64,000 nt of DNA from an uncultured Alphaproteobacteria bacterium (lineage in GTDB: Bacteria > Pseudomonadota > Alphaproteobacteria > HIMB59 > GCA-002718135). The notes under the pieces were generated by a model. That model saw only the letters and a list, made by a program, of their open reading frames with translations. It was not told the DNA's origin and made no database searches. How positions within the stretch are numbered: position 1 is the stretch's first letter; each line of letters starts with the position of its first letter. This document shows positions 14,164 through 18,270 of this stretch, one piece after another. A program made the translations under genes and the position numbers. The stretch lies in contig CACNKX010000001.1 of assembly GCA_902621165.1 (NCBI GenBank), positions 213,071 to 277,070 of the forward strand, given 5' to 3'.

Positions 14164-14181
14164 CTTATTTTGTTCTTATTG
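14160..14181 (+). repeat. Tandem 11-bp direct repeat TGTTCTTATTT / TGTTCTTATTG
   Basis: Two adjacent 11-bp units, 10/11 identical, overlap the -10-like element. An 11-bp phasing is typical of winged-helix response-regulator sites. Function is unknown. Confidence 0.9.
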
Positions 14182-14218
14182 CGATATTGAGCAAATGTTG
14201 TATTGTCCCTTTTCGGCG

Positions 14219-14234
14219 GCACTACATATTGTGT
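14219..14234 (+). promoter_or_regulatory. Candidate NrdR box
   Basis: GCACTACATATTGTGT matches the published NrdR-box consensus acaCwAtATaTwgtgt, as I recall it, at 14 of 16 positions. It lies 40 nt upstream of nrdA. I could not find a convincing partner box. Confidence 0.35.
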
Positions 14235-14273
14235 TTTTCGACAATAATTTTTTAAAAAATGGATAGAATTTAA

Positions 14274-17027
14274 ATGGCAGACAATCTACAGGTATCAGCA
14301 AAAATCTCAGAAGAAAAAAGTGTAAATATTTTAACATTAAGTGTTGTTCGTCGTGACGGAGCTATTACTCCTTTCAAATCTGATAAAATTTCAAATGCTA
14401 TAAAAAAAGCATTCTTGGCTCAAACAAAAATTAGAAATGATAAAAATAAGGAAAAAGAACAACAAGATGGAATTCATAAAACTGTTGAAGCTTTAACTCA
14501 TAAAGTTGTCTCTGCTCTAACAAGAAGGATTGCCGACGGCGACATGATTCACATTGAGGATATACAAGATCAAGTGGAGTTAGCACTTATGAGAGATGAG
14601 CATCATAAAGTTGCTAGAGCGTATGTTTTATATAGAGAACAAAGAGCGGCTTCAAGATATCACACTAAAAAACTAAAAGAACAAGTTGGAGAAAAAGCTT
14701 CTTCAATGATGGTAACCAAAAGAGATGGAAGTAAAGAGCCAATTTCACTGGATAAAATAACCAATAGAGTCTCTGTGCTATCAACTGGTTTAAATATTGA
14801 TCCAATTGTCGTTGTTCAAAAAGCTGTTCCAGGCTTATATTCTGATATTAGTTCCATTGAAATTGATACTTATCTTGCTGAAACTGCAGCCGCTTTAACA
14901 GTTGAACATCCAGATTATTCTTATCTTGCAGCAAGAATAAAAGTTAATTCACTACATAAAGAAACCCCAGGTTTCATAATTGCAACAAAAAATTTATACG
15001 ATGATGGATTGTTAAGAGAAGATTATTATAAAAAGGTGATGGAGAATGCAGATTTAATAGAGTCCGTAATTGACTATGATAAAGATTATACTTTTGATTA
15101 TTTTGCTCTCACAACACTAATAAGGGCATATTTATTAAAGTTCGATAATAAAACAATTGAAAGACCTCAAGACCTTTGGATGAGAGTGACTTTAACAGTT
15201 ACCGGTAATGAGTTTAATTTAGATAAAATAAAAGAAACCTATAAAAGTTTATCAACTGGTATGTATACACATGCTACTCCAACATTGTTTAATAGTGGAT
15301 TAAAAATGCAGCAATTATCTTCATGCTTTTTGATAGGTATGGAGGATGACTCCATAGAAGGTATTTTTAATACTATAAAAGATTGTGCTCTAATATCTAA
15401 AACCGCTGGTGGTATTGGCATGCACGCTCACAATATTAGAGGTAGTGGAAGTAGAATAAAATCAACAAACGGCAAATCTAATGGCCTTATTCCATTTTTG
15501 AAAATATTTAATGAGACTGCTAAATCAGTTGATCAAGGTGGAGGAAAAAGAAAAGGTTCTTTCGCAGTTTACTTAGAACCTTGGCATGCTGACATTGAGA
15601 AATTTCTAGAACTTAGAAAAAATACAGGTGCCGAAGAATTTAGAGCGAGAGATTTGTTTTATGCTTTATGGATACCTGATTTATTCATGAAAAGAGTAGA
15701 AAATGATGAAGAATGGACACTTATGAGTGAACATGAATGTCCAGGTCTTTCAGATGTATATGGTGACGAGTTTGAAAAACTTTACACTAAGTATGAAAAT
15801 GAAATGAAGCATTTAGAAAAAATTAAAGCAAGAGATCTAATGTCAAAAATTATAGAAGCGCAGATAGAAACAGGACAGCCTTATATGCTCTATAAGGACT
15901 CAATCAATAACAAGTCCAACCAAAAAAATATTGGTGTTATTAAATCTTCAAACCTGTGTGCAGAAATAGTTGAATACTCTGATAAGAATGAAACATCTGT
16001 ATGTAACTTGGCTTCTATAGCTCTGCCAAAATTTGTAAAAAAATCAGATAAAAAATTAATATATGACTATGATGCTCTTTATGAAACAGCAAAATTGGCC
16101 ACAAAAAACTTAGATGAAGTAATTGATATTAATTTTTATCCAACTGATAAAACGGAAAGATCTAATAATAAACACAGACCAATAGGTTTAGGAATACAGG
16201 GTCTTGCAGATGTCTACTTCAAGTTAGGAATAGCTTATGAGTCTGAAGAGGCTAAAGAAATAAATAAATTAATTTTTGAAACAATTTACTTTGGAGCTTT
16301 AGAAGCTTCATGTGAATTAGCAAAAGAAAAGGGAGCATACGAAACATTTAAAAAATCACCAATTTCGGAAGGTAAATTTCAATTTGATCTGTGGAATGTT
16401 AACCCGTCTTCAAAATGGGATTGGGATTCGCTAAGAGCTAAAATTAAAGAGCACGGTGTAAGAAACTCTTTAACCACAGCTTGTATGCCAACTGCGTCAA
16501 CAGGCATTATATTAGGTAACACTGAAACATTCCAAATACAAACCTCTAATATATATAAAAGACAAACACTCTCAGGTGAGTTCCTTCTTGTAAATAGATA
16601 TTTGGTGAATGAACTTTCTCAAAGAGGACTGTGGAATAAAGATATGAGAGACAAAATAATTTTAGAAAATGGATCGGTAGAAAACATAAATGAAATTCCA
16701 GTTGAGCTAAAAGAAATCTATAAAACAGTTTGGGAAGTATCACAAAAAACTGTCATAGATATGTCAGCAGATAGAGCACCATTTATTGATCAAACCCAAT
16801 CAATGAATCTTTGGCTTTCAACGCCTACATTTGGGAAAGTTAATTCAATGCATATGTATGCATGGAAAAAAGGTCTTAAAACAGGAATGTATTATCTCAG
16901 AAGTAGATCAGCAGTTGATGCTGTAAAAGTTACAGTTTCATCAGAAAAAGCAGCAAAAGATGCTTATATAAATACTGCTATTAAACAAAACAATGAACCA
17001 GAAGATTGCGAAACTTGCAGTGCATAA
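14274..17027 (+). CDS. nrdA: Class Ia ribonucleotide reductase alpha subunit, eukaryote-like, with two N-terminal ATP-cones
   Basis: 917 aa. Long blocks are near-identical to my recollection of mammalian R1 (SSCFL..M.DDSIEGI, GGIG, LEPWH.DI..FL.L.KNTG.EE.RARDLF.ALWIPDLFMKRVE, NLC.EIVEY, GLKTGMYYLR). The C-terminal redox tail is CETCSA. There are two VxKRDG/VRRDG ATP-cone starts. Confidence 0.97.
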   Translation: MADNLQVSAKISEEKSVNILTLSVVRRDGAITPFKSDKISNAIKKAFLAQTKIRNDKNKEKEQQDGIHKTVEALTHKVVSALTRRIADGDMIHIEDIQDQVELALMRDEHHKVARAYVLYREQRAASRYHTKKLKEQVGEKASSMMVTKRDGSKEPISLDKITNRVSVLSTGLNIDPIVVVQKAVPGLYSDISSIEIDTYLAETAAALTVEHPDYSYLAARIKVNSLHKETPGFIIATKNLYDDGLLREDYYKKVMENADLIESVIDYDKDYTFDYFALTTLIRAYLLKFDNKTIERPQDLWMRVTLTVTGNEFNLDKIKETYKSLSTGMYTHATPTLFNSGLKMQQLSSCFLIGMEDDSIEGIFNTIKDCALISKTAGGIGMHAHNIRGSGSRIKSTNGKSNGLIPFLKIFNETAKSVDQGGGKRKGSFAVYLEPWHADIEKFLELRKNTGAEEFRARDLFYALWIPDLFMKRVENDEEWTLMSEHECPGLSDVYGDEFEKLYTKYENEMKHLEKIKARDLMSKIIEAQIETGQPYMLYKDSINNKSNQKNIGVIKSSNLCAEIVEYSDKNETSVCNLASIALPKFVKKSDKKLIYDYDALYETAKLATKNLDEVIDINFYPTDKTERSNNKHRPIGLGIQGLADVYFKLGIAYESEEAKEINKLIFETIYFGALEASCELAKEKGAYETFKKSPISEGKFQFDLWNVNPSSKWDWDSLRAKIKEHGVRNSLTTACMPTASTGIILGNTETFQIQTSNIYKRQTLSGEFLLVNRYLVNELSQRGLWNKDMRDKIILENGSVENINEIPVELKEIYKTVWEVSQKTVIDMSADRAPFIDQTQSMNLWLSTPTFGKVNSMHMYAWKKGLKTGMYYLRSRSAVDAVKVTVSSEKAAKDAYINTAIKQNNEPEDCETCSA

Positions 17028-17041
17028 AGAAGGAGTAAAGA

Positions 17042-18031
17042 ATGATATCAAAAGGCGTTAAATCAATATTTCCAATAAAAAACCAAGAAATTTGGGATAG
17101 GTACAAACAACATATTCAAGCCTTTTGGACAACTGAAGAAGTATCTTTGCAAGATGATTTAAGAGATCTTGAAACTTTAAATGATGGTGAAAAGCATTTT
17201 ATTAAGCACGTACTTGCATATTTTGCTAACTCCGAAGCAATGATTAATGAAAACTTAGCAAGTAGGTTCTACAAAGAAATTTTAATTCCTGAAGCAAGAT
17301 GTTTTATATCTATACAAATGTTGAATGAATCAATTCATGCAGAGATGTATGGTCTACAAATTGAAGCTTATGTAAAAGATGCAAAAGAAAAAGACATGCT
17401 TTTTGATGCAATACAAAACGTGCCGTGTATTAACCATAAAGCACAATGGGTATCAAAATGGCTCAATGGTAGTCAAAATTTATTAACAAGACTAATAGGA
17501 TTTGGATTAGTTGAAGGTTTATTTTTTGCTGGCTCTTTCTGTGCAATATATTATTTCAGAAAAAGAGGTTTATTACCTGGTTTAGCATTATCTAACGACT
17601 GGATTGCAAGAGACGAAGGAATGCATTTTAGTTTCTCATCTCTTATGTTTAGAACTTTAAGAGATAAATTTAATAATAAAACATTAACTGATGCAGATAT
17701 TAGTGATTTGTCTTTGATACCCTCAGATGTGCCTCAATCACAATTTGAAGAAATTGTTAGAGAAGCAGTAGCATTTGAAAAAGAATTTGTAAGAGATGCT
17801 TTACCAGTAGATTTAATTGGTATGAATCAAGACTTAATGTGTCAATATATTGAAGCTGTTGCAGACAGAATTGCTGACCTATTTGAATTTGACAGAGTCT
17901 TTAAAACAGAAAATCCTTTTGATTTTATGAGAGCTTTAGATGTACAAAATGTTACTAACTTTTTTGAAAAAAGGGTATCTGAATATCAACGACCTACAGA
18001 TAGAGCTTTAAGTTTTGATGAAGCATTTTGA
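17042..18031 (+). CDS. nrdB: Class I ribonucleotide reductase beta subunit, eukaryote-like
   Basis: 329 aa with FWTTEEV, HVLAYFANSEAMINENL, NESIHAEMY, VEGLFFAGSF, RDEGMH and the ENPFDFM...NFFEKRVSEYQ motif. Confidence 0.97.
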   Translation: MISKGVKSIFPIKNQEIWDRYKQHIQAFWTTEEVSLQDDLRDLETLNDGEKHFIKHVLAYFANSEAMINENLASRFYKEILIPEARCFISIQMLNESIHAEMYGLQIEAYVKDAKEKDMLFDAIQNVPCINHKAQWVSKWLNGSQNLLTRLIGFGLVEGLFFAGSFCAIYYFRKRGLLPGLALSNDWIARDEGMHFSFSSLMFRTLRDKFNNKTLTDADISDLSLIPSDVPQSQFEEIVREAVAFEKEFVRDALPVDLIGMNQDLMCQYIEAVADRIADLFEFDRVFKTENPFDFMRALDVQNVTNFFEKRVSEYQRPTDRALSFDEAF

Positions 18032-18270
18032 TGGAAGCAGAGATATACTCTAAAACTAATTGTGGATACTGTGATAGAGCTAAACTACGGTTAGCTAAAT
18101 TTAATCCAAAGATTTATATGCTTGATACAGATTATACGAGAGAAGATTTTTTTGAAAAGTTTCCGAACGCTAAAACCTTTCCTCAAATAATTTTAAATGG
18201 TGAAAAAATTGGAGGGTATCATGAACTTGAAAAATGGTTTGAAATGAATACCTTTGACGAAGAATTCTAA
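18031..18270 (+). CDS. Glutaredoxin (CGYC active site), RNR-operon associated
   Basis: 79 aa from the ATG at 18031, which overlaps the nrdB TGA as TGATG; the ORF track extends to a TTG at 18028. It has the CGYC motif and TFPQIILNGEKIGGYHEL. Confidence 0.9.
   Translation: MEAEIYSKTNCGYCDRAKLRLAKFNPKIYMLDTDYTREDFFEKFPNAKTFPQIILNGEKIGGYHELEKWFEMNTFDEEF

What the first reader, a model, noticed from the sequence alone, without database searches (positions are those of the whole stretch)
17234..17350. The eukaryote-like NrdB has Glu instead of the canonical Asp at the first metal ligand but keeps the radical Tyr
The motif HVLAYFANSEAMINENL aligns without gaps to the mammalian R2 motif HVLAFFAASDGIVNENL (recalled). 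The conserved Asp ligand (E. coli D84 equivalent) is therefore Glu65 here (gaa, 17234-17236). The remaining ligands are present (NESIH, VEGLFF, RDEGMH), as is the tyrosyl-radical position (EMY, Tyr103, tat 17348-17350). Glu at this site is the hallmark of the Mn/Fe class Ic protein of Chlamydia trachomatis, where the Tyr is also lost. I also recall it in di-Mn class Id proteins, but I am not certain of that. A Glu-plus-Tyr combination in a eukaryote-type beta suggests a non-canonical metallocofactor. Such a cofactor might be Mn-containing, which would make sense for an iron-limited ocean organism; this is inference only.
Basis: partly seen in the sequence, partly recalled or inferred. Interest (0 to 1): 0.55.

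Follow-up and report, generated by a model that had tools for sequence, protein, structure and literature searches.

The report
Ribonucleotide reductase with glutamate metal ligand
The DNA-precursor enzyme of this SAR11-type ocean bacterium has glutamate where nearly all its relatives have aspartate at the metal site; the change defines a branch of the enzyme family I could not find described, and in Vibrio relatives that branch appears to be switched on by iron starvation, which hints at a manganese-using or iron-sparing cofactor that only biochemistry can confirm.

Summary
In nrdB (17042-18031, +), Glu65 (gaa 17234-17236) aligns without gaps to mouse R2 Asp139. Tyr103, the other five ligands, the radical pocket and the electron-transfer residues are all present.

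The Glu is not a one-off. About 300 relatives have it with no exception, using both Glu codons. These are SAR11-type proteins at 74-100% identity, plus Vibrio harveyi, V. tapetis, Photobacterium damselae and Ichthyobacterium seriolicida at about 60-65%. Together they form a monophyletic branch (NJ bootstrap 100/100) of the eukaryote-like beta family. Outside it, 146 of the 148 nearest 50%-identity clusters have Asp.

Glu65 always comes with Asn95, the residue before ligand 2. The resulting 8-residue pattern E-E-H-E-E-H/N/D matches no published RNRdb group.

The protein is not class Id: it has no Lys at +4, no Thr, no Trp, and its alpha subunit has ATP-cones. It is not class Ic either, because Tyr is kept.

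In three Vibrionaceae lineages the orthologous nrdA-nrdB-grx operon has a 14/15 Fur box about 60-75 nt upstream of nrdA. In two of them it lies next to suf. This suggests an iron-starvation isozyme.

The cofactor metal cannot be read from sequence. I lean towards Mn-containing (about 0.5) over ordinary diferric-tyrosyl (about 0.35).

The parts
14219..14234 (+). NrdR-box-like palindrome (gCACTACATATTGTGT) upstream of nrdA. It lies within a block (about 14176-14245) conserved among SAR11-type loci.
   Evidence: Read. The block is conserved in 8 of 9 related loci whose upstream region was aligned. Calling it an NrdR box rests on my recollection of the consensus; it was not tested.
14274..17027 (+). 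nrdA, class I RNR alpha subunit, 917 aa. Residues 145-896 are eukaryote-like.
   Evidence: Pfam Ribonuc_red_lgC, Ribonuc_red_lgN and ATP-cone x2. Human R1 5d1y E=1.5e-278 over residues 139-896. 61% identical to the V. harveyi partner alpha.
14340..14648 (+). Extra N-terminal ATP-cone (residues 23-125), lying in front of the eukaryote-type ATP-cone (residues about 145-237).
   Evidence: Pfam ATP-cone with two stretches, the best at 23-125. Only P. aeruginosa NrdA 5im3 aligns from residue 21. It is absent from the 752-aa Vibrio alpha.
17007..17018 (+). C-terminal Cys-x-x-Cys of NrdA (C912, C915), the expected acceptor of electrons from the redoxin.
   Evidence: Sequence EDCETCSA. Conserved as EDCLNCGA in V. 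harveyi. The role is inferred from established class I RNR knowledge.
17042..18031 (+). nrdB, class I RNR beta (radical-generating) subunit, 329 aa, a member of the 'E/N branch' of the eukaryote-like beta family.
17126..17128 (+). Trp29 codon (tgg), equivalent to mouse W103 / E. coli W48 on the radical-transfer path.
   Evidence: Invariant column in alignment A2. Aligned to 'sfwtaeev' of mouse R2.
17234..17236 (+). Glu65 codon (gaa): metal ligand 1, which is Asp in all other class Ia/Ib groups.
17324..17326 (+). Asn95 codon (aat): second-sphere position 7, the residue before Glu ligand 2. It is Met/Ile/Val in ordinary eukaryote-like betas.
   Evidence: The position is defined in PMC6370689 Tables 3-4.
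17327..17338 (+). Glu96 ... His99 (E-S-I-H): metal ligands 2 and 3.
   Evidence: Invariant columns. Alignment to mouse E170/H173.
17348..17350 (+). Tyr103 codon (tat): the tyrosyl-radical position (mouse Y177).
   Evidence: Invariant in all sets examined.
17513..17515 (+). Glu158 codon: metal ligand 4. It is followed by F162 and F166 of the hydrophobic radical pocket.
   Evidence: Pocket residues are as named in PMC3824934 section 17.
17612..17626 (+). Asp191-Glu192-Gly-Met-His195: second-sphere Asp (position 8) and metal ligands 5 and 6.
17666..17722 (+). Insertion of about 19 residues (about 209-227) between two core helices. It is absent from mouse R2 and from the Vibrio proteins but present in the Flavobacteriales-type members.
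   Evidence: Gaps. The 328-aa relatives are shown.
17984..17986 (+). Tyr315 codon: the C-terminal radical-transfer Tyr (mouse Y370 / E. coli Y356). It is followed by the alpha-binding tail ...LSFDEAF.
   Evidence: Nearly invariant column in A2.
18028..18270 (+). Glutaredoxin (active site CGYC). The likely start is ATG 18031, which overlaps the nrdB stop (TGATG) and gives a 79-aa product.
   Evidence: Pfam Glutaredoxin and NCBIfam GRX hits. 79-aa 'glutaredoxin 3' entries are listed in the cluster look-up. The same gene order occurs in Vibrio loci.

Best explanation
Shown: nrdB encodes the radical-generating beta subunit of an aerobic class I ribonucleotide reductase. It is expressed from an nrdA-nrdB-glutaredoxin operon. 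It belongs to a distinct, monophyletic bacterial branch of the eukaryote-like beta family, which I call the 'E/N branch'. Members are SAR11-type marine Alphaproteobacteria, Vibrio harveyi, V. tapetis, Photobacterium damselae, Ichthyobacterium seriolicida and relatives. In this branch metal ligand 1 is Glu (E65) instead of Asp, and the residue before ligand 2 is Asn (N95) instead of Met/Ile. About a dozen further substitutions cluster on the four ligand-bearing helices. The following are unchanged: Tyr103, its Phe/Phe/Ile pocket, the Trp29-Asp191-Tyr315 radical-transfer route and the alpha-binding tail. The protein is not a member of class Id or class Ic.

Inferred: the four-Glu/two-His site assembles a cofactor that differs from the canonical diferric centre. 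Most likely it contains manganese (Mn/Fe or Mn2) and is made without an NrdI-type activase. The oxidising equivalent is held on, or passed through, Tyr103 and then travels via Trp29 and Tyr315 to the alpha subunit. The alpha subunit is re-reduced by the co-encoded glutaredoxin through its C-terminal CxxC. The biological point would be iron sparing. In SAR11-type cells this would be the housekeeping enzyme. In Vibrionaceae it would be an iron-starvation isozyme, analogous to E. coli NrdEF.
For: Identity and ligand assignment. Fixation of Glu with both codons, and of Asn95. Rarity elsewhere: Asp in 146/148 nearest cluster representatives, in 73/73 D-type sequences of the tree set, and in all 67 viral relatives that could be read. 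Monophyly of the E/N set is supported 100/100 in NJ bootstrap with columns 65 and 95 removed; the sister sequence is Asp+Asn. Branch signature on the ligand helices: M67, I68, N95, Q106, G155, L160, A163, Y171, D186, F196, S197, S199. The published tables give NrdBe = D...M/I/V, Ic = E...E, Id = E...C/S, so E...N is a new pattern. The Tyr/Glu pairing was the diagnostic for Mn2 class Id. Alpha and beta subunits co-vary at 61% each with V. harveyi, and the gene order alpha-beta-redoxin is the same. No NrdI gene occurs in any of the loci. Fur boxes matching 14/15 lie 60-75 nt upstream of nrdA in three Vibrionaceae lineages, within a conserved footprint; chance expectation is 0.04-0.07 per locus at up to 2 mismatches. 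The suf operon is adjacent in two of these lineages, one of which has a perfect Fur box before sufA. In a Vibrionaceae fur mutant the ordinary nrdA is down 3.8-fold. The E. coli precedent is the Mn-dependent NrdEF, which serves during iron starvation (Martin and Imlay 2011, title as listed).
Against: The scaffold is class Ia: about 50% identity and 1.8 A rmsd to mammalian R2. The radical pocket and second-sphere Asp191 are intact, as expected for a tyrosyl-radical enzyme. By my recollection (unverified here, papers not held) E. coli R2-D84E still forms the iron-tyrosyl cofactor, so Glu alone does not exclude iron. No known route for oxidising a Mn2 site is visible: there is no NrdI and no Id-type Lys at +4 (N69). 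The Fur boxes are consensus matches, not experiments. I did not verify that those Vibrio genomes also carry ordinary nrdAB. The SAR11-type operon has no Fur box. Metal preference in ferritin-like proteins is not predictable from sequence. The tree is neighbour-joining only.
Confidence: 0.5

Rival explanations
1. This is an ordinary class Ia enzyme. The beta subunit assembles a diferric-tyrosyl radical cofactor from Fe(II) and O2 like mammalian R2. Glu65 and Asn95 only tune assembly kinetics or stability (for example a longer-lived peroxo intermediate) without changing the metal.
For: The closest sequences and structures are mammalian, yeast and Plasmodium R2. Tyr103, F162, F166, I188, W29, D191 and Y315 are all conserved. 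The alpha subunit has ATP-cones like class Ia. No activase gene is present. The engineered E. coli R2-D84E retains tyrosyl-radical formation with iron (own knowledge). Several E. coli R2 variant entries appear among the PDB hits, but I did not check which carry D84E.
Against: Asp is otherwise almost universal in Ia/Ib, so the site is not free to drift. Yet Glu is fixed here with coupled second-sphere changes. Every natural beta with Glu at this position that has been characterised uses Mn. A second, Fur-box-bearing, suf-adjacent class I operon in Vibrio is hard to explain if it needs the same iron cofactor as the housekeeping enzyme.
Confidence: 0.35
2. This is a convergent class Id-like enzyme. 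A Mn2(IV,III) cluster made from Mn(II) and superoxide is itself the oxidant, and Tyr103 is only a relay and never a stable radical.
For: The Tyr/Glu pairing is the feature that first defined class Id. Within NrdBi the Asp-to-Glu change came before the Lys, which is conserved only in a subgroup. No NrdI gene is nearby, as in class Id.
Against: The features that hold Tyr away from the metal and admit superoxide in class Id are absent: Thr before ligand 5 is D191 here, Lys at +4 is N69, and Trp at +7 is L72. The AF2 model shows an unbroken helix through residue 65. The alpha subunit has ATP-cones, unlike all class Id alphas. No class Id structure appears among the 60 best sequence matches shown (E <= 0.0035) or the 50 structural matches listed.
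Confidence: 0.1
3. The substitution is neutral drift or compositional bias, or the gene is a decaying or inactive paralogue.
For: Asp to Glu is chemically conservative. The genome is AT-rich (28.5% GC).
Against: GAT (Asp) is as AT-rich as GAA. About 300 sequences spanning 59-100% identity never revert, while the codon alternates between GAA and GAG. All catalytic residues are intact, and 1783 member sequences fall in one 90% cluster of ocean metagenomes. The operon is translationally coupled.
Confidence: 0.02

Closest known systems
Eukaryotic class Ia R2 (mouse/human RRM2, yeast Rnr2; RNRdb group NrdBe)
   Same: Best sequence match (E=1.5e-90, about 50% identity) and best structural match (rmsd 1.7-1.9 A). 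It shares the radical Tyr, the Phe/Phe/Ile pocket, the Trp/Asp/C-terminal Tyr pathway and a '...F-x-x-D-x-x-F'-type tail. The partner alpha subunit is eukaryote-like.
   Different: Ligand 1 is Glu, not Asp. Second-sphere position 7 is Asn, not Met/Ile/Val. About a dozen branch-specific changes lie on the ligand helices. There is no eukaryotic N-terminal extension. The gene is bacterial, in an operon with a glutaredoxin, and the alpha subunit has a second ATP-cone.
Class Id beta (NrdBi; Flavobacterium johnsoniae, Leeuwenhoekiella blandensis, Facklamia ignava), Mn2(IV,III) cofactor
   Same: Four Glu and two His as first-sphere ligands. The Tyr is retained (Tyr/Glu pairing). No NrdI is present.
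   Different: It belongs to a different phylogenetic group. It lacks Lys at +4, the Thr partner for Tyr and the Trp at +7. Its alpha subunit carries ATP-cones, whereas class Id alphas lack them.
Class Ic beta (NrdBzc; Chlamydia trachomatis), Mn(IV)/Fe(III) cofactor
   Same: Glu at ligand 1. A polar H-bonding residue sits at second-sphere position 7 (Glu in Ic, Asn here). The alpha subunit has multiple ATP-cones. It is the next-best structural match after eukaryotic R2.
   Different: Class Ic has Phe, Leu or Val at the radical position, whereas Tyr is strictly kept here. Identity is only 22-24%.
Engineered E. coli R2-D84E (own knowledge; literature not held in the library)
   Same: The same Asp-to-Glu change next to a retained radical Tyr on a class Ia scaffold.
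   Different: It is a laboratory point mutant without the accompanying second-sphere changes. It uses iron.
E. coli/Salmonella NrdEF (class Ib) as a regulatory analogue
   Same: A second aerobic RNR encoded with its own redoxin. It is Fur-repressed and used during iron starvation.
   Different: NrdEF needs NrdI, has Asp at ligand 1 and belongs to a different clade. Fur control of the Vibrio E/N operon is only predicted.

Membership tests
Class I RNR beta subunit (Pfam PF00268 Ribonuc_red_sm) | Full-length match to the family profile | tested here: met
   298 bits against a cut-off of 33.6, covering residues 8-292.
Class I RNR beta subunit (Pfam PF00268 Ribonuc_red_sm) | Two E/D...ExxH motifs providing six metal ligands | tested here: met
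   E65, E96, H99, E158, E192 and H195.
Class I RNR beta subunit (Pfam PF00268 Ribonuc_red_sm) | Radical-transfer residues (Trp, second-sphere Asp, C-terminal Tyr) and an adjacent alpha subunit gene | tested here: met
   W29, D191 and Y315. nrdA ends 15 nt upstream.
Class Ia, eukaryote-like group NrdBe | Closest sequence and fold relatives are eukaryotic R2 | tested here: met
Class Ia, eukaryote-like group NrdBe | Asp at metal ligand 1 | tested here: not met
   Glu65. The published group pattern has D. 146/148 nearest clusters have D.
Class Ia, eukaryote-like group NrdBe | Met/Ile/Val at second-sphere position 7 | tested here: not met
   Asn95.
Class Ia, eukaryote-like group NrdBe | Diferric-tyrosyl radical cofactor | not testable with these tools
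   This needs metal analysis and EPR.
Class Id (NrdBi) | Tyr/Glu pairing | tested here: met
   E65 and Y103.
Class Id (NrdBi) | Conserved Lys four residues after Glu ligand 1 (F. johnsoniae K71) | tested here: not met
   N69, invariant in the branch.
Class Id (NrdBi) | Thr before Glu ligand 5 that H-bonds the Tyr (F. johnsoniae T191); strictly conserved Trp at +7 from ligand 1 | tested here: not met
   D191 and L72. The features are described.
Class Id (NrdBi) | Alpha subunit lacks an ATP-cone | tested here: not met
   Two ATP-cones here and one in the Vibrio and Flavobacteriales partners.
Class Id (NrdBi) | Phylogenetic placement in NrdBi | tested here: not met
   No class Id structure among the 60 best sequence matches shown (E <= 0.0035) or the 50 structural matches listed. 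The nearest relatives are NrdBe-like.
Class Id (NrdBi) | Mn2(IV,III) cofactor assembled with superoxide | not testable with these tools
   Biochemistry is required.
Class Ic (NrdBzc) | Glu at ligand 1 | tested here: met
   E65.
Class Ic (NrdBzc) | Phe/Leu/Val instead of the radical Tyr | tested here: not met
   Tyr103 is invariant.
Class Ic (NrdBzc) | Glu at second-sphere position 7; placement in NrdBz | tested here: not met
   Asn95. Identity to C. trachomatis R2 is 22-24%.
Class Ib (NrdF) | NrdI flavodoxin (and NrdH) encoded with the operon; Asp ligand | tested here: not met
   The operon is nrdA-nrdB-grx with no NrdI in any of the loci examined. The TIGR04171 score is 61 bits against a cut-off of 355.

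The most novel reading that the evidence does not exclude
The E/N branch is a new biochemical subclass of class I ribonucleotide reductase. It would have a manganese-containing cofactor (Mn/Fe or Mn2) assembled without NrdI on a eukaryote-type scaffold that still uses the tyrosyl-radical site. It would have arisen by an Asp-to-Glu switch independent of those in classes Ic and Id. It would mean that SAR11-type bacteria, among the most abundant cells in the ocean, make DNA precursors with little or no iron, and that some Vibrio pathogens keep the enzyme as a Fur-controlled iron-starvation backup.
Probability: 0.35. Interest if true: 0.8.

Novelty: new variant of a known kind. Interest (0 to 1): 0.6.

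Why it matters
Class I RNR subclasses are defined by their metal cofactor. Each new one (Ic, Id, Ie) was first spotted through exactly this kind of ligand or Tyr signature. If the E/N branch uses Mn, this would be a third independent Asp-to-Glu switch. That would give a natural test of whether the single ligand change, together with the Asn second-sphere change, drives metal choice. It would also remove or halve the iron cost of DNA synthesis in a dominant ocean heterotroph, which matters for iron-quota models. For fish and shellfish pathogens it would identify an iron-starvation RNR. The question is directly testable, because V. harveyi is cultivable and the proteins are small and soluble-type. 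If the enzyme turns out to be diferric, it would instead be the first natural class Ia enzyme with Glu at this site. That would be a useful counter-example to the rule that a Tyr/Glu pairing means class Id.

Tried and rejected
- An AF2 run on a shallow alignment (87-93% identity) gave pLDDT 52 and was discarded. A deeper alignment was needed.
- Literature searches for 'D84E' returned only MC1R genetics. 'F127Y' returned nothing relevant.
- Rose et al. 2018 (PMC6488936) is not held in the library.
- The P. ubique iron-limitation paper does not mention RNR.
- No paper linking SAR11 or Vibrio to this RNR variant was found.
- A 19-mer Fur consensus search with up to 3 mismatches missed the site. 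The 7-1-7 core pattern found it.
- No virus-borne copy of the E/N type was found. The best viral relatives are 48% identical or less, and all that could be read have Asp.
- Rfam and tRNA scans of the window found nothing.
- I considered that the Glu might be specific to SAR11. This was rejected once Vibrio and Ichthyobacterium members were found.
- I considered that P0254 and P0266 share the origin of the Glu. P0254 joins the branch in only 42/100 bootstraps, and P0266 is independent (Glu with Val at position 95; nearest to eukaryotic sequences).
- I could not establish whether cultured 'Candidatus Pelagibacter ubique' strains carry this exact type. Only MAG and SAG labels (Pelagibacteraceae, Pelagibacterales, HIMB59, MarineAlpha5) were seen.
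Full report
**The gene and the observation.** The window (28.5% GC) carries three co-oriented genes: nrdA (14274-17027, 917 aa), nrdB (17042-18031, 329 aa) and a glutaredoxin. The likely glutaredoxin start, ATG 18031, overlaps the nrdB stop. An identical NrdB is deposited as MDC3187166.1 '[Pelagibacteraceae bacterium]' and is seen on 96 contigs. Codon 65 is gaa (17234-17236) and codon 103 is tat (17348-17350). phmmer aligns residues 9-207 to mouse R2 (E=1.5e-90) with no gap between residues 9 and 145, so Glu65 lies on Asp139 and Tyr103 on Tyr177. The motifs NESIH, VEGLFF and RDEGMH supply the other ligands.

**The Glu is selected, not chance.** All 120 closest database clusters (87-93% identity) have the pattern E-E-H-Y-E-E-H. 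All 80 species-representative genomes recovered have Glu, encoded by GAA in 46 and GAG in 34. So synonymous change is tolerated but reversion to Asp is not, although GAT suits an AT-rich genome equally well. In an exhaustive search of 1.84 billion 50%-identity representatives, 146 of the 148 nearest full-length relatives have Asp. Seventy-five giant-virus-type relatives were recovered; all 67 whose motif could be read have Asp. Published surveys agree. Munro et al. report Asp in all standard class Ia clades and Glu only in R2c and R2lox (PMC3824934). Harrison et al. tabulate NrdBe as D-E-H-E-E-H (PMC6370689 Table 4).

**The Glu is a clade character and is coupled to a second change.** I searched from an orphan Glu-bearing relative (P0254) and then from the Ichthyobacterium protein. 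This uncovered Glu-bearing NrdBs in Vibrio harveyi, Vibrio sp. B172a, V. tapetis, Photobacterium damselae subsp. piscicida, Ichthyobacterium seriolicida and several uncultured bacteria. It also uncovered 87 more alphaproteobacterial proteins, 85 of them 329 aa long and 74-87% identical to ours. Every one has Glu65, Tyr103 and also Asn95, the residue just before Glu ligand 2. Ordinary relatives have Met, Ile or Val there. This is 'second-sphere position 7' in Harrison et al. (E. coli S115 in their numbering). The 8-residue pattern E-E-H-E-E-H/N/D matches none of their RNRdb groups: Ic has Glu and Id has Cys or Ser at position 7. From memory, the E. coli residue at this position H-bonds the site-2 His ligand; if so, Asn95 could do the same to His195. 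That is an inference. A neighbour-joining tree built without columns 65 and 95 recovers the E/N set as one clade in 100/100 bootstraps. The orphan P0254 joins it in 42/100. The sister sequence has Asp with Asn, which suggests that Asn came first. The query is 61% identical to V. harveyi NrdB over the full length, and the alpha subunits are also 61% identical. The branch has its own signature on the ligand helices: M67, I68, N95, Q106, G155, L160, A163, Y171, D186, F196, S197, S199 and others.

**What stays the same.** Tyr103 is invariant. So are its hydrophobic pocket (F162, F166, I188; pocket as defined; columns), Trp29, Asp191, Tyr315 and the acidic, aromatic C-terminal tail. NrdA residues 145-896 match human R1 at E=1.5e-278. 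NrdA ends in a CxxC pair that is shared with the Vibrio alpha.

**Comparison with known subclasses.** The Tyr/Glu pairing is the feature by which class Id was first distinguished (PMC8463856 section 7). Class Id is further defined by several features: a Lys four residues after the Glu, a Thr that holds the Tyr about 7 A from Mn1, a strictly conserved Trp at +7, alpha subunits without ATP-cones, and membership of NrdBi. Here those positions are N69, D191 and L72, and the alpha subunit has two ATP-cones. No class Id structure appears among the 60 best sequence matches shown (E <= 0.0035) or the 50 structural matches listed. Class Ic requires loss of the Tyr, which is not the case here. Class Ib requires NrdI, which is absent from every locus examined. 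No NCBIfam equivalog reaches its cut-off for this beta; the best scores 160 bits against 309. So the protein works like a class I beta and sits in the eukaryote-like lineage, but it fails one defining feature of each described subclass.

**Regulatory and contextual evidence from orthologues.** In V. harveyi the operon is nrdA (752 aa, one ATP-cone), nrdB and grx. About 60-75 nt upstream of nrdA lies TGATAACTATTATCA, a 14/15 match to the 7-1-7 Fur core. It is the only match in 17 kb, with 0.06 expected at up to 2 mismatches. The same sequence sits at the same position in a V. tapetis-type locus with a different upstream neighbourhood. A third Vibrionaceae-type locus has TGATAATGATTTTCA there. 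An alignment of these upstream regions shows a conserved footprint that begins at this box. In the second and third loci the suf Fe-S assembly operon is immediately adjacent, and in the V. tapetis-type locus a perfect Fur box precedes sufA. In Aliivibrio salmonicida, a fur-null mutant lowers ordinary nrdA 3.8-fold (PMC5511505). The pattern parallels E. coli NrdEF, the Mn-dependent RNR used during iron starvation (Martin and Imlay 2011, cited). In the SAR11-type window there is no Fur box near nrdA. Instead a conserved NrdR-box-like palindrome lies at 14219-14234, which fits a housekeeping role.

**Mechanistic reading.**
- Shown: this is a functional-looking class I beta with a four-Glu/two-His site, a retained radical Tyr and a dedicated redoxin.
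- Inferred: the cofactor differs from the canonical diferric centre and probably contains Mn.
- Reasons for the inference: every characterised natural beta with Glu at ligand 1 uses Mn; the site is otherwise strongly constrained to Asp; and the Vibrio regulation points to an iron-starvation isozyme.
- Tyr radical: because the Tyr pocket is of class Ia type, I expect the Tyr still to be oxidised or at least used as a relay.
- Counter-arguments: the class Ia scaffold; my recollection that E. coli R2-D84E still makes the iron-tyrosyl cofactor; and the lack of any visible way to oxidise a Mn2 site (no NrdI, no Lys channel). A Mn/Fe site would not need one.
- Probabilities: about 0.5 for a Mn-containing, iron-sparing cofactor; 0.35 for an ordinary diferric-tyrosyl cofactor; 0.1 for an Id-like metal-centred oxidant.

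**Novelty and limits.** I found no paper describing a Glu/Tyr variant within the eukaryote-like group or in SAR11 or Vibrio. The tree is neighbour-joining only. The Fur boxes are predictions. I did not verify the full RNR complement of any genome. The taxon labels are those of MAG and SAG depositors.

Noticed in passing
window 14340-14648 (NrdA residues 23-125): The otherwise eukaryote-like alpha subunit has an extra N-terminal ATP-cone in front of the eukaryote-type one. The Vibrio and Flavobacteriales partners of the same branch have only one cone. Published phylogenies describe NrdAe as mostly single-cone.
   Followed up: partly
window 18028-18033: The nrdB stop codon and the glutaredoxin ATG overlap (TGATG), which suggests translational coupling. 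The glutaredoxin active site is CGYC. In Flavobacteriales-type members the downstream gene is a thioredoxin instead.
   Followed up: partly
window about 14176-14245: A strongly conserved upstream block in SAR11-type loci. It contains an NrdR-box-like palindrome (gCACTACATATTGTGT, 14219-14234) and a second conserved element (TTGCGATATTGAGCAAATGTTGTATTGT).
   Followed up: partly
L157 5616-5630; L162 2646-2660 and 6305-6319; L165 2571-2585: Near-consensus Fur boxes upstream of the E/N-type nrdA in three Vibrionaceae lineages. In L161/L162 and L165 the suf operon is adjacent, and in L162 a perfect Fur box precedes sufA.
   Followed up: yes
L163/L164 (Photobacterium damselae subsp. piscicida): An IS-type transposase fragment lies just upstream of the operon, the Fur-box half-site is degraded, and no nrdA gene was called in the 2.4 kb before nrdB. 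The alpha gene may be a pseudogene in this host-adapted pathogen.
   Followed up: no
L081 (protein P0254): An orphan Glu65/Asn95 beta (302 aa, at most 45% identical to anything else). It is next to a 697-aa alpha without an ATP-cone, a thymidylate kinase and an IS66 fragment. The organism is unknown, and its attachment to the E/N branch is weak.
   Followed up: partly
protein P0266 (493 aa, on a 202-kb JGI contig): An independent Glu-plus-Tyr case with Val at position 95. Its nearest relatives are eukaryotic R2 sequences and it has a long unrelated N-terminal extension. It may be a eukaryotic gene model.
   Followed up: no
window 17666-17722 (NrdB residues about 209-227): An insertion of about 19 residues, absent from mammalian R2 and from the 310-aa Vibrio proteins but present in the 328-aa Flavobacteriales-type members.
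   Followed up: no
window 1-64000: No tRNA, tmRNA or Rfam family at gathering threshold anywhere in the 64 kb.
   Followed up: no
L169 173-1456: In one uncultured Flavobacteriales-type member the RNR operon is divergently adjacent to NifU-like and Mrp/ParA-type Fe-S carrier genes. This is another Fe-S-related neighbourhood, but it could be coincidence.
   Followed up: no
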